From the NCBI GenBank assembly GCA_963621825.1, contig CAVFFP010000003.1:8801-72800 (forward strand): DNA of 64,000 nt, read 5' to 3'. The position numbers and the translations under genes are program-made. The first letter of the stretch is position 1, and every line of letters starts with the position of its first letter. The notes beneath the pieces were generated by a model, which had not been told where the DNA came from, ran no database searches, and was given only the letters and a program-made list of their open reading frames with translations. Positions 3,732 to 50,545 of this stretch are shown here, one piece after another. This stretch comes from a bacterium. GTDB taxonomy: Bacteria; Bacillota_I; Bacilli_A; RFN20; CAG-288.

Positions 3732-4778
3732 ATGGAACTCAACGAATTTGAAAAACTCTCCAAAAAAGAGATAGAAGATGCGAAAAACGAAAGTCTTAAG
3801 ATCACTGACCGTGCTTCCTTAGAAGCCTTCAAAGGTAAATTCTTAGGCAAAAAGAGTAATCTGACAGCTTTTTATTCTCAGATGAGAACAATTTCTCAGG
3901 ATCAGAAAAAAGCCTTCGGTGAAAAACTTACTGCCTTAAAGGAACAGCTTAATCTTTACTTTGAAGAAAAGGAAAAGGAACTGAAGGAAAAGGAACTGAA
4001 CAAGAGGCTTGCCAAGGAGAAGGTTGACATCACTCTTCCTGGCTATGAGGAAACCTTGGGAAGCAAACATCCTTTCTATGCTGTCGTCGATGATATCACC
4101 GACTTCTTTGTCGGCTTAGGATTTACGGTTGCCGATGGTCCGGAAGTCGAAAGCGACAGAAACAATTTCGAATTGATGAACATTCCCGCCGATCATCCGG
4201 CAAGAGATATGCAGGATTCCTTCTCTATCGACCCTACTACTGTCTTAAGAAGCCACACTTCCTGTGTTCAGGCCCGCGTCATGCAGCAGATGCAGGGAAA
4301 AGGCCCGGTCAAGGTCATCTGCCCAGGCAAAGTGTACCGCCGCGACAACGATGCTACCCATAGTCATCAGTTCGGTCAGATTGAAGGTCTTGTCATCTCC
4401 GAAGACTGTACTTTCAGCAATCTCCTTGAGACATTGACTCTTCTCCTTCGCCATCTCTTCGGTGACAAACGTGAAATCCGTTTCCGTCCTTCCTTCTTCC
4501 CGTTCACGGAACCGAGCGTAGAAGCTGACATCTCCTGTTTTGAATGCGGCGGAAAAGGCTGCAACTTCTGCAAGCATACCGGTTGGATTGAGGTTTTAGG
4601 CTCGGGCATGGTTCATCCTAACGTCCTTCGTCTGAACGGATATGATGATACCAAATACAAAGGATTTGCCTTTGGTATCGGCATTGACCGTATCGCGATG
4701 CTGAAATACAACATCGATGACATCAAGAGATTCTATACCAATGATGTCAACTTTGTCTCTCAGTTCAGAAAGGAGTAA
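3732..4778 (+). CDS. pheS: Phenylalanine--tRNA ligase alpha subunit
   Basis: Class II aaRS motifs (FPFTEPS, GSGMVHPNVL, GFAFGIGIDRIAM); pheT follows; only 17 nt after the ftsZ stop. Confidence 0.95.
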   Translation: MELNEFEKLSKKEIEDAKNESLKITDRASLEAFKGKFLGKKSNLTAFYSQMRTISQDQKKAFGEKLTALKEQLNLYFEEKEKELKEKELNKRLAKEKVDITLPGYEETLGSKHPFYAVVDDITDFFVGLGFTVADGPEVESDRNNFELMNIPADHPARDMQDSFSIDPTTVLRSHTSCVQARVMQQMQGKGPVKVICPGKVYRRDNDATHSHQFGQIEGLVISEDCTFSNLLETLTLLLRHLFGDKREIRFRPSFFPFTEPSVEADISCFECGGKGCNFCKHTGWIEVLGSGMVHPNVLRLNGYDDTKYKGFAFGIGIDRIAMLKYNIDDIKRFYTNDVNFVSQFRKE

Positions 4779-8787: not shown

Positions 8788-8816
8788 TTGCACGAAGTGG
8801 GATGAATAATTATAAT
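8788..8816 (+). promoter_or_regulatory. Sigma-A-type promoter of the mraZ operon (TTGCAC-17-TATAAT)
   Basis: -35 at 8788-8793, -10 at 8811-8816, 17-bp spacer, 25 nt upstream of the GTG start of mraZ. Confidence 0.6.
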
Positions 8817-8832
8817 TGTGGGTGAAAGTGGG
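8797..8832 (+). promoter_or_regulatory. MraZ operator: three direct GTGGG boxes (AAGTGGGA 8797, TTGTGGGT 8818, AAGTGGGA 8828) overlapping the promoter and 5' UTR
   Basis: Direct repeats of the AAGTGGG type match the published MraZ-box architecture; they lie over the -35/-10 of the mraZ promoter. Confidence 0.55.
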
Positions 8833-8841
8833 AAATAAATC

Positions 8842-9282
8842 GTGTTTTATGGTCAAAAAGAACTGACACTCGATGACAAGTATCGTCTGGTTCTACCCTC
8901 AATCTATCGCGACGGTTTCACAGAAAGCACATGCTTTGCCACTTTAGGCATGGACAAATGTGTCCAGCTGTTTCCAAAGGAAACGTTTGAGAAAAACGCT
9001 GAGGAGATCATGAAGCTTTCTGAGTTCTCCAAAGAGGCCAGAGATGTCCGTCGTATCTTCATGGGAAACACCTTCAACATTCAGATTGACTCCCATAATC
9101 GTATTCTCTTGCCGAAGCTTCTTATGAACAAAGTATCCTTAGGAAAGAAAGTTGTTGTTGTCGGTGTCTACGATCATCTTGAAGTTTGGGATCAGGACGC
9201 CTATTACGCAAGCGAAAAAGAAGGCGAAGAGAATTATTCGTCCAACGCGAAGAAACTCTTGGAAGGGACGGATAAGGCATGA
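8842..9282 (+). CDS. mraZ: Transcriptional regulator MraZ
   Basis: GTG start; N-terminus MFYGQKELTLDDKYRLVLP matches the MraZ start; ~145 aa with duplicated domain. Confidence 0.9.
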   Translation: MFYGQKELTLDDKYRLVLPSIYRDGFTESTCFATLGMDKCVQLFPKETFEKNAEEIMKLSEFSKEARDVRRIFMGNTFNIQIDSHNRILLPKLLMNKVSLGKKVVVVGVYDHLEVWDQDAYYASEKEGEENYSSNAKKLLEGTDKA

Positions 9283-26856: not shown

Positions 26857-27619
26857 ACGCAGTCTGATTAGCCGCATCAATTCTTGCTTTCCTCCTTCCT
26901 CTTCTGAAGTATGGGATTTCCCTGGTTTTCAATGCGGTAAAAGAAACCCCAAAAGAGAGATCAAAAAGGTTCTTCTTTGCCTTGATTTCACTGAGGACGT
27001 CCTTGTGGAAGCGAAAAAGTATCAGCCTGATTTGATTCTTACTCATCATCCATTCTTTTTCGGGAAGAAGAAAGATGTGCTTTCTTCCGATGCGAAAAAG
27101 ATATACTTGACTCAGGAAGTCGAAAAACTGAATTGTTCCCTTTATTCTTATCATACTGACTTTGATAAAGATGCAATGGGTATGAATGACACTCTTCTTT
27201 CTTTCTTGGGTGTGAAAGATATTCAAGTTGCTCCGGATGGACTCATGAGATTAGGTCATTTGTCACATCCTTTTTCCATGGTGGAGCTTCTTGATTTAGT
27301 AAAAGACAAATACTCTCTTCCCTTTCTCCTTTACTTAAAAGGCACAAAAGAAGAGATTCAGAATATCGCCTTTGTTGCTGGAGGTGATTCCGGCGCTTAC
27401 TTTGATGCTCTTTCCTTAGGAGCGGATTGCTATATTTCCGGAGACTGTCCTCACCACACTAGACTTGAGATGAGACGATACGGACTCAATTACATCGAAC
27501 TTCCGCATGAAGTGGAAGAGTTAGGGTTCTTAATTGGAATGTCTGAAGTTCTTTCTAAAATCAATCCAGAGATTGATGTAAACAAATTTGCGTTTGAAAA
27601 GTATTTTGATATCCGATAA
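26849..27619 (+). CDS. Nif3-family dinuclear metal centre protein (YqfO)
   Basis: HHPFFF and GDCPHHT metal-binding motifs; conserved position after trmK. Confidence 0.75.
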   Translation: MNERSLISRINSCFPPSSSEVWDFPGFQCGKRNPKREIKKVLLCLDFTEDVLVEAKKYQPDLILTHHPFFFGKKKDVLSSDAKKIYLTQEVEKLNCSLYSYHTDFDKDAMGMNDTLLSFLGVKDIQVAPDGLMRLGHLSHPFSMVELLDLVKDKYSLPFLLYLKGTKEEIQNIAFVAGGDSGAYFDALSLGADCYISGDCPHHTRLEMRRYGLNYIELPHEVEELGFLIGMSEVLSKINPEIDVNKFAFEKYFDIR

Positions 27620-27632
27620 AGGAGCAGAAAGC

Positions 27633-28562
27633 ATGAACAAAGAGAAAAAGGTTACTGACGGATTAGACGAAGACTTCGACATTGATGAGGTCGATTGCGG
27701 TTCTTCCATCAATGGCAAAGATGCCTACCAGATGTTTATCGATTCAATCTCTACGTTCCCCAAATTCACCTCTCAGGAGAATCTTGAAAAGATAAAGGAG
27801 TATCACTCTGCGGAAGGTGATGAAAAGATTGCACTACTAGATAGCATTGTCGAAGGGAATATCCGTCTTGTCATAAAATATGCAGCCGAAATCGCCTCAC
27901 ATGCTGCTCCGAACTCTTCAGAAAAGAGTGTCCGAGGACTTAGGATGGATTTGATACAGGAAGGCTCTCAGGCGCTTGCGAAAGCCATTAAGGACTTTGA
28001 TCCGGCAAGAGGCTACGCTTTCTCCACATTAGCTGTCACCTATATCAAACGAGCTATGTACGCTTTTCTCAATGCCAATTCCAGAATGATCTATCTCCCC
28101 CAACAAATATTGGACCGCCATAGACTGATTGTCAGAGCATCTGATGAACTGGTGAAGAAAAATGGCACGAAACCTACCTTTGAGGAAGTGGCCAGTTATC
28201 TGAATAACGGACTTACGGCAAAGGACATAGAAGAAAACTGCTTGATCTTCAACGGTGTGGAAGTCAAGTCGATGGAAGGTGATTCAGACGAAGATAACGA
28301 AAAGAACGCACTGAATAATCTTCCTAGTCCGGATATGAACCCTCAGGAAGTCTGTGAGAAAAAGGAACAGATGGAAAAACTCGAGAAGGGAAGAAAAAGT
28401 CTGACTCCTATGATGAACTTCATCATTTCCCACCGTTATCCTAACGATGATTCAGAACCTTGGACGTTACGTGAGCTTTCTGAAGAGTTAGGCATTTCCA
28501 AAGAAAGGGTCAGACAACTCGAAAGCGAAGCAAAGGAAAAATTAAGAGAGATGCTTTCTTAA
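27633..28562 (+). CDS. Divergent sigma-70 family sigma factor (second paralog)
   Basis: Regions 2-4 recognisable (GNIRLVIKYA; DLIQEGSQALAKAIKDFDPARGYAFSTLAVTYIKRA; C-terminal HTH LRELSEELGISKERVRQLE). ATG 27633 preceded by AAAGGAG. The two Trp of region 2.3/2.4 are replaced. Confidence 0.65.
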   Translation: MNKEKKVTDGLDEDFDIDEVDCGSSINGKDAYQMFIDSISTFPKFTSQENLEKIKEYHSAEGDEKIALLDSIVEGNIRLVIKYAAEIASHAAPNSSEKSVRGLRMDLIQEGSQALAKAIKDFDPARGYAFSTLAVTYIKRAMYAFLNANSRMIYLPQQILDRHRLIVRASDELVKKNGTKPTFEEVASYLNNGLTAKDIEENCLIFNGVEVKSMEGDSDEDNEKNALNNLPSPDMNPQEVCEKKEQMEKLEKGRKSLTPMMNFIISHRYPNDDSEPWTLRELSEELGISKERVRQLESEAKEKLREMLS

Positions 28563-46811: not shown

Positions 46812-47252
46812 ATGTTAAAGAAAAGCACAACACAGAAGTTTGTCCTTGCTGACAAGGGCTCAATTACAAACAAAAGGCCGCTTCACATCGCGGAAGACCT
46901 CTCCTATAACTTCGGAGAGGATGTCGTCGTCTATGATGTGAGAAACAATTCTCCGTTCGTCTCTTTCTATGTCGTCGCAAGCGCAAAGAACGAGACAAGA
47001 CTCAGAGCCTTAGTCCAGAGCGCTAAGGATGCTATCTATGACAACTATCATGAAGTCGACCATGTCGAAGGCAGAAACGATTCCAACTGGATTCTCATCG
47101 ACTGCAAAGATATCGTCGTTCAGCTCTTTGCCAAAGAGGAAAGAGAAAGAGTCGGTTTCGATCAGCTTTACAAGGATGTTCCGCATAAGATTGTCAAAGT
47201 GAGTGAAGAACCTGTCTATAGACGCAGAAAGAAGCAGGTCAAAGAATTCTAA
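46812..47252 (+). CDS. rsfS: Ribosomal silencing factor RsfS (Iojap)
   Basis: VVYDVRN...FYVVASA...HVEG..NWILIDCKDIVVQLF matches the RsfS core. Confidence 0.8.
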   Translation: MLKKSTTQKFVLADKGSITNKRPLHIAEDLSYNFGEDVVVYDVRNNSPFVSFYVVASAKNETRLRALVQSAKDAIYDNYHEVDHVEGRNDSNWILIDCKDIVVQLFAKEERERVGFDQLYKDVPHKIVKVSEEPVYRRRKKQVKEF

Positions 47253-47938
47253 TGGGCCAGCATTATTTAGTAGTCGCCGCTCAGAAAGAAGAACTCGACG
47301 GACTTTTCCAAAACAAAAAGAATGTAAGAAAAGTCTCTGACTTTCTTGTCTTAGAGGAGAATGACTATATCATCTACGGTATGATCGGCGGAATCGGTAA
47401 GGTCAGCATGGCTTATCGACTTGGCGCCTTTTTACAGGATTTCCATATCGACGAAATCATCAATATCGGTGTTGCGGGAAGCATCTCAAAAGAGGTCTTG
47501 CCGTTACAGACATTGATTGCGACAAAATGCTGCTATCACGATGTTGACGTTGTTGCATTCGGATATAAGAAGGGACAGATGTGTCAGATGCCTCTTTACT
47601 TCGATTGTGATGAGAGAGCTCTCGCATATGCTTCCTCTTTGAAGAATGACAACATCAAGACTGGTCTTATTGTCTCTGGCGATGTCTTTGTCACAAAAGA
47701 AAACCTCAGTTCTGATATCTATGAGAATTTCGATAACCCTGTTGCCTGCGATATGGAATCTGCTGCAGTTGGTCAGGTCGCACACATGGCAAAGAAACCG
47801 TACATCATCATCCGTACCATCTCCGATGATCCCAACAGCGAATCCAACAAAGACACCTACAATGCAAGACTTGTCGCTGCCAGCAATGAGGCAGGAAGAC
47901 TTGCCTATTCTTTGATTCAGTATTTAGCAGAAAATTAG
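47252..47938 (+). CDS. mtnN: 5'-methylthioadenosine/S-adenosylhomocysteine nucleosidase
   Basis: IIYGMIGGIGKVSMAY, VGVAGS, SGDVFV, DMESAAV motifs of MTA/SAH nucleosidase. Confidence 0.85.
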   Translation: MGQHYLVVAAQKEELDGLFQNKKNVRKVSDFLVLEENDYIIYGMIGGIGKVSMAYRLGAFLQDFHIDEIINIGVAGSISKEVLPLQTLIATKCCYHDVDVVAFGYKKGQMCQMPLYFDCDERALAYASSLKNDNIKTGLIVSGDVFVTKENLSSDIYENFDNPVACDMESAAVGQVAHMAKKPYIIIRTISDDPNSESNKDTYNARLVAASNEAGRLAYSLIQYLAEN

Positions 47939-48130
47939 TACTAAATAAAGACTAATAAATAGTTTTAGTAATAGTTATAATTTAGTACTAGATAATTACT
48001 AAATTAATGATACACTAGTTTTCACTAAACAAGCTCACATGTTCGTCTTAGCTGATGAATATATTTAGTATTAGATTAGTACTAGATAAATACTACAAAT
48101 TAAATTCTAATTGAGTGATACTATTTCAAT

Positions 48131-48156
48131 AAAGGTCTGGAAACAGGCCTTTTTTC
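48131..48156 (+). terminator. Hairpin with GAAA tetraloop and T6 tract (AAAGGTCTG-GAAA-CAGGCCTTT-TTTC)
   Basis: seen directly; 9-bp stem with one G-U pair, in the middle of the AT-rich region, ~190 nt beyond the mtnN stop. Confidence 0.5.
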
Positions 48157-48168
48157 AATATATAACTA

Positions 48169-48196
48169 AGTACGTATAATGGATATTATGTTAATA
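48169..48196. other. dif: Candidate dif site (XerC/XerD recombination site): AGTACGTATAA-TGGATA-TTATGTTAATA
   Basis: 22/28 identity to E. coli dif GGTGCGCATAA-TGTATA-TTATGTTAAAT and 19/28 to B. subtilis dif as recalled. XerD arm TTATGTTAA fully conserved. Located at a + to - gene-orientation switch and 1.4 kb from a xerD-like gene. Confidence 0.5.
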
Positions 48197-48389
48197 AATA
48201 AAAAAGAAACGAAATAAGTAGTATTTATCTAGTACTATATTATTACTAACGAAGAAAAAAGTTTAATCTTGAGAAATTAGTACTTAATTTCATACATTTC
48301 AAAATTAGTAATAAAAAAGTACTAAATAATAACTAACATCATTTTTATTTGCTAGTTATTATTTAGTACTAATATTTTACTAATTATCT

Positions 48390-49652
48390 TTAGTCATCTA
48401 ACAATTCAGAGATGATGTCTCCGATTTCATTCTCGCTCGGAGTTACATCAAAATTCTTAAGAACTGTTTTTCCAATGCAGGCGAAGGTATCCCTTTCCTC
48501 AATGAGTCTTCCGTAAGCATAAGAAGGAGAATAAGAGATGAGTGGGACTCTTTCTCTGGTATGATCGGTTCCCCACCAGGTAGGATCGTTTCCGTGGTCG
48601 GCAGTGATCATGAGGCAGTCGTCTTCTTTCAATACATCAAGAATCTCTTTGAGGTCCTGATCAAACTCTTCGATGCACTTACCATAACCGATAGGATCTC
48701 TTCTATGTCCATAGAGAACATCGAAGTCAGCAAGATTCACAAAGCAGAGTCCTTCAAAGTCTCTGTTCTTAGCAATGTCGAGTGTCTTCATCATTCCGTC
48801 ATGATTGCTATCGATATGATAGGATTCGTTCATTCCGCGTCCGGCGAAGATATCGTGGATTTTTCCGACTGCGATGACTTCTTTTCCGTTCTTGATTAAG
48901 TCATCTAAGGATGTATTGCCGTCCGGTTCCAAAGAATAGTCTCTTCTGTCAGTGGTTCTCTTGAAGTGACCTTTTTCGGTTCCGACGAAAGGACGGGCGA
49001 TGACTCTTCCTACTCTCCACTCCTTTTTCATTGTGATTTCACGGGCAATCTCACAGTCACGATACAATTCCTCGAGAGGAATGACATCGATGTTGGCAGC
49101 AATCTGAAGGACGGAGTCAGCGGAGGTATAGACAATCAGGGCTTTCTCACGGATGGATTCTTCTCCAAGTTCATCTAAGATGACCGTTCCGGACTGGGAA
49201 TAGTTTCCGATCAGCTTTCTTCCGGTTCTCTTAGAAAGCTCATCCATGAGTTCTTTCGGGAATCCCGTATCGGTAAAGGTGACTAACGGGTTTTCGGTCA
49301 AGATTCCCATCATTTCCCAGTGACCGGTCAAGGTGTCTTTTCCGTTGCTTCTTTCTCTCAATGTCTGAACATAGGAGTTCGGATGAGAGACTTTCTCGGT
49401 TCCTTTTACATCTGCGAGATCATGAATGCCTAAGGCGTTCATGGTGGGAACATGTAAGCCGTTCATCTTATCTGCGATGTGCACCCATGTGTTGGAGCCG
49501 ACATCGTTATGGTCACCGTTATAGAATCTGTCCGCATCGGGTTCTGCACCGATTCCGACGGAATCCATGACGATGACGAACATTCTTTTGAATTTTTTCA
49601 TTGTAGTTTCCTCTCTTGTCTTCATTTTAACTTTTTCTTTCTTTTCTTTCAA
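48390..49652 (-). CDS. deoB: Phosphopentomutase
   Basis: N-terminus KRMFVIVMDSVGIGAEPDADRF...VGSNTWVHIA matches DeoB; alkaline-phosphatase-superfamily metal ligands. Confidence 0.9.
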   Translation of the reverse strand: MKEKKEKVKMKTREETTMKKFKRMFVIVMDSVGIGAEPDADRFYNGDHNDVGSNTWVHIADKMNGLHVPTMNALGIHDLADVKGTEKVSHPNSYVQTLRERSNGKDTLTGHWEMMGILTENPLVTFTDTGFPKELMDELSKRTGRKLIGNYSQSGTVILDELGEESIREKALIVYTSADSVLQIAANIDVIPLEELYRDCEIAREITMKKEWRVGRVIARPFVGTEKGHFKRTTDRRDYSLEPDGNTSLDDLIKNGKEVIAVGKIHDIFAGRGMNESYHIDSNHDGMMKTLDIAKNRDFEGLCFVNLADFDVLYGHRRDPIGYGKCIEEFDQDLKEILDVLKEDDCLMITADHGNDPTWWGTDHTRERVPLISYSPSYAYGRLIEERDTFACIGKTVLKNFDVTPSENEIGDIISELLDD

Positions 49653-50545
49653 TGAATTGGATTTTTCGTTCTGCTTTTCTTCATGCCTTTTTCGTATTCT
49701 TGCTTCTCTTTTGTCTGTGTGATGTGAGTATAGATCTCCGTCGTTCTGATGTCTTCATGCCCTAATAAGGCTTTGACCTGAACAAGTCCAGCCCCGTTTG
49801 TCAATAATGCGGTAGCAAAGGAATGGCGCAGAGTATGAGGAGATATCTTCTTATCGATATGAGCAAGGCTAGCGTATTTCTTCAGCTGAAGGAAAAAGTA
49901 CTGTCTGCTAACCTGTTTTCCGTCAGGATGGACAAAGAACAATAGCGGATTGTCTTTGATCTTCTTCCGGTATTGTTCTTCATAATAGGTCATCGCTAGC
50001 GAACATTCCTCACTGAGAGGAAGAATTCGTTCTTTGCTTCTTTTTCCTAGTATTTTGATATATCCGCCTTTTAAATAGATATAATCCTCTCTCAAGCCGA
50101 CTAATTCAGAGACTCTTAATCCTAACGAATAAGAGATGAGAATCATCGTATAATCCAATAATCCTTTTTCCTCCTGAACAGGACATTGTTCTAAAATGCG
50201 TTTTACTTCCTCCGTAGTCAGGTAAACAGGCAGTTTTTTCTCACTTCTAGGAAGATAGATCTTCTCTAACTGTAAGTCGATGCCCTTCTCTTTTCTCAAG
50301 TAGGAGAGAAAACATCGTAGAGATGTCAGTTTCCTGATGATGGTCGAATTACAATACCCCTGTTTTACAAGTTCAGTATGATAACAGGAGAAATCTCTTT
50401 CGGTAAGAGATCCGATTTCTTCCTTTCCAAAAAGACGTTCAAAAAGGGCTAAGTCCCTAGAATAGGCGTCATAAGTCTTCTGAGAGAGACCTTTTTCACT
50501 AAGAAGATAGATAAGATACTCGTTCATTGCGTCAGAAACGGTCAT
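49649..50545 (-). CDS. xerD: Tyrosine recombinase XerD (RipX-like)
   Basis: 298 aa; C-terminal HTLRHSFATALLTNGAGLVQVKALLGHEDIRTTEIYTH with catalytic R-H-R-Y context; deoB neighbourhood as for Bsu ripX. Confidence 0.8.
   Translation of the reverse strand: MTVSDAMNEYLIYLLSEKGLSQKTYDAYSRDLALFERLFGKEEIGSLTERDFSCYHTELVKQGYCNSTIIRKLTSLRCFLSYLRKEKGIDLQLEKIYLPRSEKKLPVYLTTEEVKRILEQCPVQEEKGLLDYTMILISYSLGLRVSELVGLREDYIYLKGGYIKILGKRSKERILPLSEECSLAMTYYEEQYRKKIKDNPLLFFVHPDGKQVSRQYFFLQLKKYASLAHIDKKISPHTLRHSFATALLTNGAGLVQVKALLGHEDIRTTEIYTHITQTKEKQEYEKGMKKSRTKNPIH

What the first reader, a model, noticed from the sequence alone, without database searches (positions are those of the whole stretch)
47936..48371. 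Array of GTAC-centred palindromes (TTAGTACTAA / TAGTACTAAAT) flanking the dif-like site; possible Ter-like sites
At least seven full and two partial copies of a 10-11 bp motif occur in both orientations within 440 bp. The hexamer AGTACT alone would be expected <0.1 times here. Two length variants exist (TAGTACTAAAT and TAGTACTAGATAAAT), each present in both orientations. The first copy overlaps the mtnN stop codon and the last ends 19 bp from the deoB stop. The core GTACTAAAT equals, as far as I recall, the conserved core of the B. subtilis RTP-binding Ter sites (consensus ...CTATGTACYAAAT...). The array could therefore be a replication fork-trap/terminator-protein site cluster. Alternatively it could be an operator array for a nucleoid or terminus-organising protein, or a degenerate miniature inverted-repeat element. 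No RTP-like gene is visible in this window, so the binding protein is unknown.
Basis: partly seen in the sequence, partly recalled or inferred. Interest (0 to 1): 0.75.

Follow-up and report, generated by a model that had tools for sequence, protein, structure and literature searches.

The report
Palindrome array bracketing the dif site
The gap between two converging genes at the replication terminus of an uncultured gut bacterium holds six or seven copies of a 30-bp palindrome on both sides of dif, the chromosome-unlinking site; this layout recurs in at least ten related lineages and looks like the landing pad of an unidentified DNA-binding protein.

Summary
It is a 30-bp palindrome, TAGTA-N6-TAGTACTA-N6-TACTA. 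Three dyad-related contact blocks lie 11 bp apart and the spacers are unconserved. Six good copies and one core-only copy fill the mtnN/deoB intergenic region (47925-48382; 0.00 expected by chance). They bracket a bona fide dif site (48169-48196) and an intrinsic terminator. No other copy occurs in the 64-kb window.

Eight species-level relatives (including the window) show 2-3 sites on each side of dif, and two more lineages have arrays at contig ends. Inter-site DNA has diverged completely. More distant relatives carry runs of direct TAGTA pentamers at exactly 11-bp phasing, at a fixed distance from dif and upstream of neighbouring operons.

The array is therefore a selected set of binding sites for a trans-acting protein. 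It is not a mobile repeat, an RNA structure or a CRISPR array.

The RTP/Ter analogy fails on membership. No site fits the B. subtilis Ter consensus, the sites are symmetric and so non-polar, and no RTP-like gene was found in the window.

Most likely the array nucleates a complex that organises or insulates dif. The binding protein and the function remain unproven.

The parts
47925..47954 (.). Palindromic site 1 (TAGCAGAAAATTAGTACTAAATAAAGACTA). It contains the mtnN stop codon TAG at 47936-47938.
   Evidence: 2 mismatches to the 18 specified positions
47972..48001 (.). Palindromic site 2 (TAGTTATAATTTAGTACTAGATAATTACTA)
   Evidence: 1 mismatch; self-complementary arms reported as I22
48066..48095 (.). 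Palindromic site 3 (TAGTATTAGATTAGTACTAGATAAATACTA)
   Evidence: 0 mismatches
48131..48155 (+). Intrinsic terminator of the mtnN operon: hairpin AAAGGUCUG-GAAA-CAGGCCUUU followed by a U-run. On the minus strand it is much weaker.
   Evidence: dG -12.3 kcal/mol, z -4.65 on the plus strand; -7.2 kcal/mol, z -2.5 on the minus strand
48169..48196 (+). dif site AGTACGTATAA-TGGATA-TTATGTTAATA. The XerD-type arm faces deoB.
   Evidence: Pattern match. Orthologous 28-mers occur in 50 of 80 related loci, always downstream of xerD-deoB and in the same orientation.
48219..48248 (.). Palindromic site 4 (TAGTATTTATCTAGTACTATATTATTACTA)
   Evidence: 0 mismatches
48267..48296 (.). Degenerate site 5. Only the core TAGTACTT (48277-48284) is kept; the outer blocks are lost.
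   Evidence: AGTACT at 48279; aligned; not recovered at 5 or fewer mismatches
48306..48335 (.). Palindromic site 6 (TAGTAATAAAAAAGTACTAAATAATAACTA)
   Evidence: 2 mismatches
48353..48382 (.). Palindromic site 7 (TAGTTATTATTTAGTACTAATATTTTACTA). It ends 8 bp before the deoB stop codon.
   Evidence: 1 mismatch
49649..50545 (-). Context: a XerD-type tyrosine recombinase gene, the enzyme expected to act at dif. It lies in the operon dxs-recN-dinB-xerD-deoB, which converges on the array.
   Evidence: TIGR02225 XerD, E = 5.6e-74, which is below NCBI's trusted cut-off. The same synteny is seen in relatives.

Best explanation
The array is a set of high-affinity binding sites for one sequence-specific DNA-binding protein that is not encoded next to it. 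Each 30-bp site presents three dyad-related contact blocks exactly one helical turn apart (TAGT|a at -11, TAGT|ACTA at 0, t|ACTA at +11). A multimer, either three dimers or a dimer of dimers, would therefore sit on one face of the DNA. Six or seven such sites coat the whole gap between the two converging operons, from stop codon to stop codon. Only the terminator and dif are left free in the middle. I infer that the resulting nucleoprotein complex marks and organises the dif locus. Most likely it holds or presents dif for XerCD/FtsK-dependent chromosome unlinking, or anchors the terminus. As a side effect it would shield dif from incoming RNA polymerases and replisomes. What is shown: the motif, its architecture, its confinement to dif in the sequence available, and its conservation. 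What is inferred: that a protein binds, its stoichiometry, and the function.
For: The motif is far beyond chance and confined to this region of the window. A PWM of 39 sites from 8 species carries 1-2.4 bits at the three blocks and about 0 bits in the spacers. This is the signature of base contacts in successive major grooves. Spacers are no more self-complementary than chance (0.44 against 0.417, P = 0.21), and single sites do not fold (z -0.7 and -1.0). Arrays of 4-6 sites flank dif on both sides in L001, L002, L004 and L006-L009, and in the metagenome contigs L098, L123, L139 and L186, which duplicate L006, L001, L002 and L006 respectively. L125 and L141 carry arrays at contig ends. Everything between the sites has diverged. 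No off-array site with 3 or fewer mismatches occurs in about 144 kb of clade sequence. All six clade contigs recovered by a metagenome-wide exact-pattern scan are this same locus. In sister lineages the same pentamer forms runs of 3 or more units at exactly 11-bp spacing: 52 runs in 816 kb, against 0-1 at other spacings or in simulations. One such run lies +115 to +142 bp from dif in nearly every locus. Others lie directly upstream of the dinB, dxs and yqeG operons, which is how the operator of a trans-acting factor behaves. The outermost sites abut the flanking stop codons in every lineage.
Against: No binding protein has been identified, and none of the window ORFs scanned is a plausible candidate. 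Distances from the sites to dif and between sites are not conserved or helically phased in the window clade. This argues against a rigid Xer accessory architecture. In sister lineages the motif also sits at promoters, so the factor may be an ordinary transcription factor whose presence at dif is secondary. Only about 5-10% of any one genome could be inspected, so confinement to dif is not proven genome-wide. No experimental data exist for these uncultured organisms.
Confidence: 0.45

Rival explanations
1. Replication-fork pause or termination sites, working like Ter. Protein bound to the array slows forks arriving from either side, so that fork fusion happens at dif.
For: The array sits exactly where gene orientation and AT skew switch, and it sits on both sides of dif. 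In L016 and L027 the dif-proximal runs are direct repeats that point towards dif from both sides, which is a polar, convergent arrangement. The core shares GTACTA with the RTP B site.
Against: Sites in the window clade are symmetric, so they cannot let forks enter but not leave. A non-polar block on both sides would stop each fork outside the roughly 450-bp region. No site fits the Ter consensus. No RTP-like gene was found in the window ORFs scanned. In sister lineages the orientation of runs towards dif cannot be separated from gene orientation, because the runs also sit at the starts of co-oriented operons.
Confidence: 0.15
2. Operators of an ordinary transcription factor. At dif they would act as roadblocks or insulators that stop read-through from the two converging operons. 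Alternatively they would be a decoy cluster that titrates the factor, with copy number changing last in the cell cycle.
For: In sister lineages the phased runs lie 2-40 bp upstream of the start codons of dinB, dxs and yqeG and point into the genes. In the window, deoB transcripts must cross four sites and dif before reaching only a weak terminator. The sites begin right at both stop codons.
Against: In the window clade no promoter within 64 kb carries a site. Here the motif has therefore been kept only at dif and multiplied there. Sites lie both before and after the strong terminator on the mtnN side, where no roadblock is needed. The conserved bracketing of dif on both sides is not explained by this reading.
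Confidence: 0.2
3. Non-protein explanations: a degenerate miniature inverted-repeat element, REP-like palindromes, cruciform or RNA hairpins, or a decayed CRISPR array.
For: The region folds far better than shuffles as a whole (z -8.8), and the repeat finder reports long imperfect inverted arms (I1, 85 nt, 74%).
Against: The strong fold is the trivial result of repeating one palindrome. Spacers within sites show no excess complementarity, single sites do not fold, and non-motif positions of the two arms are complementary only at background level (0.34 against 0.30 +/- 0.04). There are no dispersed copies in clade DNA. No similar DNA occurs in plasmid or phage collections and there is no Rfam hit. 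Spacing is irregular (47, 94, 153, 48, 39, 47 bp), unlike CRISPR. The locus is orthologous across species, while only the motif is conserved.
Confidence: 0.04

Closest known systems
B. subtilis RTP-Ter replication fork trap
   Same: Both are about 30-bp sites at the terminus that would be bound by several subunits; each Ter takes four RTP monomers (PMC10331603). Both contain GTACYA and WACTA elements (consensus in PMC3317982), and both lie close to dif.
   Different: Ter is asymmetric, with a weak A and a strong B half-site, and is polar. It is dispersed as 9 sites over a large region in two opposed groups, and one copy lies in the rtp promoter (Ter site number and dispersal are from my own knowledge). 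Here the sites are two-fold symmetric, clustered within 0.5 kb on both sides of dif, differ in register (CTA-GTAC against CTATGTAC) and do not fit the consensus. No rtp-like gene lies nearby.
MatP-matS (enterobacterial Ter macrodomain organiser)
   Same: Both are palindromic sites specific to the terminus region. Both are presumably bound by a dimeric or tetrameric protein that organises or anchors the dif region rather than regulating genes.
   Different: matS is a 13-bp site, GTGACRNYGTCAC, with about 23 copies spread over about 800 kb (own knowledge). Here a 30-bp tripartite site occurs 4-7 times within 0.5 kb. MatP is restricted to gamma-proteobacteria.
Xer accessory sequences of plasmid sites cer and psi (ArgR/ArcA + PepA)
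   Same: Both are protein-binding DNA directly adjoining a Xer core site. In sister lineages a run lies at a fixed distance (+115 to +142) from dif, as accessory sites do.
   Different: Accessory sequences lie on one side only, the XerC side, span about 180 bp and have strict geometry (own knowledge). Here the sites lie on both sides at variable distances. The fixed run in sister lineages is on the XerD side.
Plasmid centromere arrays bound by ribbon-helix-helix proteins (ParR-parC, ParG-parH, omega heptads)
   Same: Both use short 4-7-bp boxes in direct and inverted orientation, separated by AT-rich spacers at helical periodicity. Both assemble a multi-dimer complex on one DNA face (own knowledge).
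   Different: Those arrays are contiguous, lie next to their par genes and also serve as promoters. Here discrete 30-bp units are scattered around a chromosomal dif, with no par genes nearby.
Rok and FapR recognition elements (Bacilli winged-helix proteins)
   Same: Rok prefers the pentamers AACTA and TACTA (PMC6212790). The FapR operator is TTAGTACCAGATACTAA (PMC5028935). Both share the WACTA / TTAGTA half-site.
   Different: Rok reads the minor groove of generic AT-rich foreign DNA without phased palindromes. FapR half-sites are 10 bp apart in inverted orientation at lipid-synthesis promoters, and no pair of blocks here has that geometry. These are leads to a fold, not membership.

Membership tests
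RTP-Ter fork trap | Sequence fits the Ter consensus KMACTAANWNNWCTATGTACYAAATNTTC | tested here: not met
   The best matches in the window have at least 7 of 25 mismatches and none lies in the array. The 13-nt B core has no match with 2 or fewer mismatches in the array. The consensus was verified in PMC3317982.
RTP-Ter fork trap | Asymmetric A/B half-sites that give polarity, with opposed orientation on the two sides of the terminus | tested here: not met
   The PWM of 39 sites is two-fold symmetric, so the sites have no orientation. Only L016 and L027 show convergent direct runs.
RTP-Ter fork trap | An RTP (winged-helix) gene, typically next to a Ter site that autoregulates it | tested here: inconclusive
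   No RTP- or PadR-like hit was found among the roughly 40 window ORFs scanned with Pfam or NCBIfam; about 14 larger ORFs were not scanned. No gene is called between mtnN and deoB. The rest of the genome was not available.
RTP-Ter fork trap | Polar arrest of replication forks | not testable with these tools
   This needs 2D gels or replication profiling.
MatP-matS | 13-bp matS palindrome GTGACRNYGTCAC | tested here: not met
   The motif is TAGT-N7-TAGTACTA-N7-ACTA.
MatP-matS | Sites dispersed over a large Ter macrodomain | tested here: not met
   All sites lie within 0.5 kb, or 1 kb in L002. None occurs elsewhere in the 64-kb window or in about 80 kb of relatives.
Xer accessory sequences (cer/psi type) | Accessory DNA on one side (the XerC side) of the core, at fixed geometry | tested here: not met
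   Sites lie on both sides. The nearest site is +49 to +85 on one side and -49 to -161 on the other, depending on lineage.
Xer accessory sequences (cer/psi type) | Required for, and gives directionality to, Xer recombination | not testable with these tools
   This needs recombination assays.
MITE / REP-type repeats | Many dispersed copies; terminal inverted repeats with target-site duplications | tested here: not met
   The motif is confined to one orthologous locus. Inter-site DNA is not conserved.
CRISPR array | Near-identical repeats with regularly sized spacers | tested here: not met
   Repeats are degenerate in 12 of 30 positions. The gaps between sites are 17, 64, 123, 18, 9 and 17 bp.
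Structured RNA | Match to a known RNA family, or compensatory pairing | tested here: not met
   No Rfam hit was found at E <= 1 in the window or at gathering thresholds in 8 loci. Spacer complementarity is at chance.
MraZ operator (MraZ is encoded in the window) | Phased direct repeats matching the organism's own MraZ boxes | tested here: not met
   The mraZ promoter carries GTGGG repeats (8796-8833), not TAGTA.

The most novel reading that the evidence does not exclude
A previously undescribed, lineage-specific chromosome-terminus system. A dedicated protein binds a tripartite 30-bp palindrome and coats both flanks of dif in Enterosoma/RF39-like gut Bacilli. It would act as a new kind of dif accessory, terminus anchor or non-Tus, non-RTP termination device. 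It would have evolved from an 11-bp-phased TAGTA operator which, in sister lineages, sits at a fixed distance from dif next to a DnaA box.
Probability: 0.35. Interest if true: 0.85.

Novelty: new variant of a known kind. Interest (0 to 1): 0.62.

Why it matters
Outside the Tus, RTP and MatP systems, almost nothing is known about how bacteria mark and manage the point where replication ends and sister chromosomes are unlinked. This array is a compact, conserved and easily synthesised DNA element wrapped around dif in a large group of uncultured human and animal gut bacteria. It offers a direct bait for fishing out a new terminus-binding protein. It also gives a way to test whether dif needs local architectural or barrier proteins in Firmicutes that lack RTP.

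Tried and rejected
- **RTP/Ter identity.** The consensus scan failed.
- **RNA element.** There are no Rfam hits. Single sites do not fold and their spacers do not covary. The strong fold of the whole region is an artefact of repeating a palindrome.
- **Mobile or generic repeat.**
  - There are no other copies in the window or in relatives.
  - There is no similar DNA in plasmids or phages.
  - The 16 viral and most of the 120 metagenome exact-pattern hits are unrelated: 11-bp microsatellites, single chance hits, and ORF-free contigs of 16-20% GC such as L106.
- **MraZ as binder.** Its own promoter uses GTGGG boxes.
- **A binder encoded in the window.** Pfam or NCBIfam scans of about 40 ORFs found only housekeeping genes, MraZ and a sigma-like protein.
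- **A MazF/PemK-like gene ending exactly at the dif-proximal run.** It occurs in only about 15 of the 71 more distant loci (L010-L080) and is absent from the window clade.
- **A small ORF starting at the DnaA-box-like element.** The predicted peptides are not conserved.
- **A long sequence-level inverted repeat across dif.** Non-motif complementarity is at background.
- **Mirror symmetry of site spacing around dif.** It looks striking in the window and in L001, but is only marginal overall (P about 0.06).
- **Purifying-selection test on close pairs.** The pairs are nearly identical, so the test is uninformative.
- **Extending the genome sample.** The source contig (CAVEPB010000008.1, 78.7 kb) barely exceeds the window.

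Full report
**Observation**

The region 47939-48389 is the gap between two converging genes. mtnN (47252-47938, +) and deoB (48390-49652, -) were both identified with NCBIfam, and no gene is called between them in the source record.

AGTACT occurs 10 times in 64 kb, and 7 of these lie here. All five copies of TAGTACTA lie here, against 0.26 expected.

Aligning the GTAC centres and running repeat finder shows that the real unit is a 30-bp palindrome, TAGTA-N6-TAGTACTA-N6-TACTA.
- Six copies match with at most 2 of 18 mismatches, at 47925, 47972, 48066, 48219, 48306 and 48353. The expected number is 0.00.
- A seventh copy (48267-48296) keeps only the core.
- Even at 5 mismatches, every match in the window lies in this region.

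**Anatomy**

A PWM of 39 sites from eight species carries information only at positions 1-4 (TAGT), 12-19 (T[A/g]GTAC[T/c]A) and 27-30 (ACTA). The six-base spacers are AT-rich but otherwise free.

The three blocks have dyads 11 bp apart, so they lie on one face of the helix. Left and right spacers are no more complementary than chance (0.44 against 0.417, P = 0.21), and single sites do not fold (z -1.0 and -0.7). Conservation therefore reflects base-specific contacts on duplex DNA, not hairpins.

The strong fold of the whole 471 nt (z -8.8) simply reflects repetition of a palindrome. Non-motif positions of the two arms are complementary only at background level.

**Context**

- Genes run on the plus strand up to 47938 and on the minus strand from 48390, and AT skew flips here. 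This is the replication terminus.
- Between sites 3 and 4 lie an intrinsic terminator (48131-48155, dG -12.3 kcal/mol, z -4.65) and a 28-bp dif site (48169-48196).
- The right arm of dif, TTATGTTAA, is the XerD-type arm of E. coli dif (own knowledge).
- A XerD-type recombinase gene lies 1.3 kb away.
- The dif assignment is secured by comparison. ACTTCGYATAAT-N5-TTATGTWAA occurs in one orientation, 0.2-5 kb downstream of deoB, in 50 of 80 related loci.
- Record titles place these loci in uncultured Bacilli or 'Mollicutes' MAGs, including Candidatus Enterosoma. GTDB's RF39 label is from my own knowledge.
- The window comes from MAG GCA_963617615.1, contig CAVEPB010000008.1.

**Conservation**

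Arrays of 4-6 sites occur in the closest relatives (L001, L002, L004, L006-L009; deoB 67-78% identical). Every site with 3 or fewer mismatches in those loci lies inside the array.

Sites lie on both sides of dif in all eight lineages. For example:
- window: -243, -196, -102 | +51, +138, +185
- L001: -256, -187, -98 | +85, +173, +241

The outermost sites abut the stop codons of the flanking genes in every lineage. The whole gap is therefore covered except for the terminator and dif.

Six are from this clade, and all six are this same locus. L098, L123, L139 and L186 duplicate L006, L001, L002 and L006. L125 and L141 are further lineages with arrays at contig ends.

The remaining hits are unrelated. 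Nothing similar exists in plasmid or phage collections.

Within about 144 kb of clade DNA the motif is thus confined to dif. This is only 5-10% of a genome, so genome-wide exclusivity is not proven.

**Wider clade**

In more distant loci (deoB 54-63% identical) the palindrome is absent, but the same pentamer forms runs of 3 or more direct units at exactly 11-bp spacing. There are 52 such runs in 816 kb, against 0-1 at spacings 8-14 or in Markov simulations.

- One run of 2-4 units begins +115 to +142 bp from dif on the XerD side in nearly every locus. It is preceded by a DnaA-box-like TTWTCCACA, which lies near +100 (mostly +98 to +111) in roughly two-thirds of the 43 distant dif loci.
- Other runs lie directly upstream of the start codons of dinB, dxs and yqeG, the first genes of the operons that converge on dif. 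These runs point into the genes.
- In L016 and L027, runs flank dif on both sides and point towards it.

The basic element is therefore a phased TAGTA operator of a trans-acting factor. In the window clade two two-unit runs are fused head to head, multiplied and kept only around dif.

**Comparison with known systems**

- **RTP-Ter.** No array site fits it, the sites are symmetric whereas Ter is polar (PMC10331603), and no RTP-like gene was found in the window ORFs scanned.
- **MatP-matS.** Sequence, length and distribution all differ.
- **cer/psi accessory sequences.** These are one-sided with fixed geometry. Here the sites lie on both sides at variable distances.
- **MraZ.** It is encoded in the window but uses GTGGG boxes.
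- **Rok and FapR.** The half-site resembles the Rok-preferred WACTA (PMC6212790) and the FapR half-site TTAGTA (PMC5028935). The geometry differs, so these only hint at a winged-helix reader.
- **Plasmid centromeres.** Architecturally the closest analogue is a centromere bound by ribbon-helix-helix proteins, with short boxes in direct or inverted orientation at helical periodicity.

**Mechanism**

It is shown that this is a selected, locus-specific, symmetric, helically phased motif that brackets dif.

I infer that a multimeric protein coats both flanks of dif. I rank the possible functions as follows.
- **Organising or presenting dif, or anchoring the terminus, with incidental shielding (0.45).** This is the most likely reading.
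- **Roadblock or decoy operators of an ordinary regulator (0.20).** The promoter sites in sister lineages support this.
- **A non-polar fork-pausing device (0.15).** Symmetry makes a true fork trap implausible.
- **Non-protein explanations (0.04).**

The approximate mirror symmetry of site spacing about a point near dif would suit bridging of the two arms. It is statistically marginal, however (P about 0.06).

**Limits**

The binder is unknown, there are no experimental data, and the genome sample is small. Literature searches for the motif and for dif in RF39 found nothing relevant, but the library is incomplete.

Noticed in passing
L010-L077, about +100 bp from the dif centre on the XerD-arm side (e.g. 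L047:9731-9871): A DnaA-box-like TT(A/T)TCCACA in one orientation lies near +100 from dif (mostly +98 to +111) in roughly two-thirds of the 43 more distant loci. It sits between a short hairpin with a T-run (CGATTnAATCG) and the phased TACTA run. It is absent from the window clade. No conserved ORF starts there and there is no Rfam hit. A DnaA box locked to dif at the terminus is unexplained.
   Followed up: partly
L011-L068: locus coordinates ~3810-3880 (upstream of dinB), ~1900-1950 (upstream of dxs), ~13000 (between parC and yqeG): Runs of 3-4 TAGTA pentamers at exactly 11-bp phasing lie 2-40 bp upstream of the start codons of the operons that converge on dif, with no obvious Shine-Dalgarno sequence between. 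All point into the genes, and therefore towards dif. They could be operators, unusual promoters of leaderless mRNAs, or polarity signals.
   Followed up: partly
50 of the 80 loci L001-L080; window 48169-50545: The linkage xerD-deoB-(0-3 genes)-dif is conserved, with dif always in the same orientation, across a large group of uncultured Bacilli. dif lies at the convergence point with the yqeG-yqeH-nadD/yqeK-rsfS-mtnN operon.
   Followed up: yes
window 48166-48179: The outer XerC-arm positions of the window's dif read AGTACG instead of the clade consensus ACTTCG. Together with the preceding bases this gives ACTAAGTAC, which resembles half of the array core and includes an eighth GTAC. L002 and L007 also deviate at these positions.
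   Followed up: no
window 47925-48382; L001, L007, L098 arrays: Gaps between sites on the left of dif mirror those on the right: window 47/94 against 87/47, L001 69/89 against 88/68, L007 59 against 58, L098 47 against 49. The gap values themselves differ between lineages. This is suggestive of pairing of the two arms, but it is only marginal in a permutation test (P about 0.06).
   Followed up: yes
L023:9017-9604, L047:9182-9706, L049:9054-9533 and about 12 other distant loci: A 159-195-aa protein with a PemK/MazF-like domain (E = 2e-9 in L023) is encoded immediately before the dif-proximal TAGTA run. Its stop codon touches the run. It is absent from the window clade.
   Followed up: partly
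L084, L099, L104, L106, L152, L156, L159, L161, L163, L168, L181, L198 (metagenome contigs JAABU*): Contigs of 15-22% GC, with no ORF of 100 aa or more in the one checked (L106), carry a conserved cluster of the same 30-bp pattern. The spacings recur (39, 64-75, 11 and about 680 bp) and the repeats are of the ACCGTAGTACTA type. This is probably a eukaryotic (possibly anaerobic-fungal) repeat family unrelated to the bacterial array.
   Followed up: partly
window 8796-8833: Three GTGGG boxes upstream of mraZ (8842-9282) form a canonical MraZ operator. This shows that the organism's MraZ uses the usual motif.
   Followed up: yes
window 27588-28562: A 324-aa sigma-70-family protein (regions 2 and 4 only) is encoded downstream of trmK and a NIF3-family gene. 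Whether it is the primary sigma factor or an alternative one was not determined.
   Followed up: no
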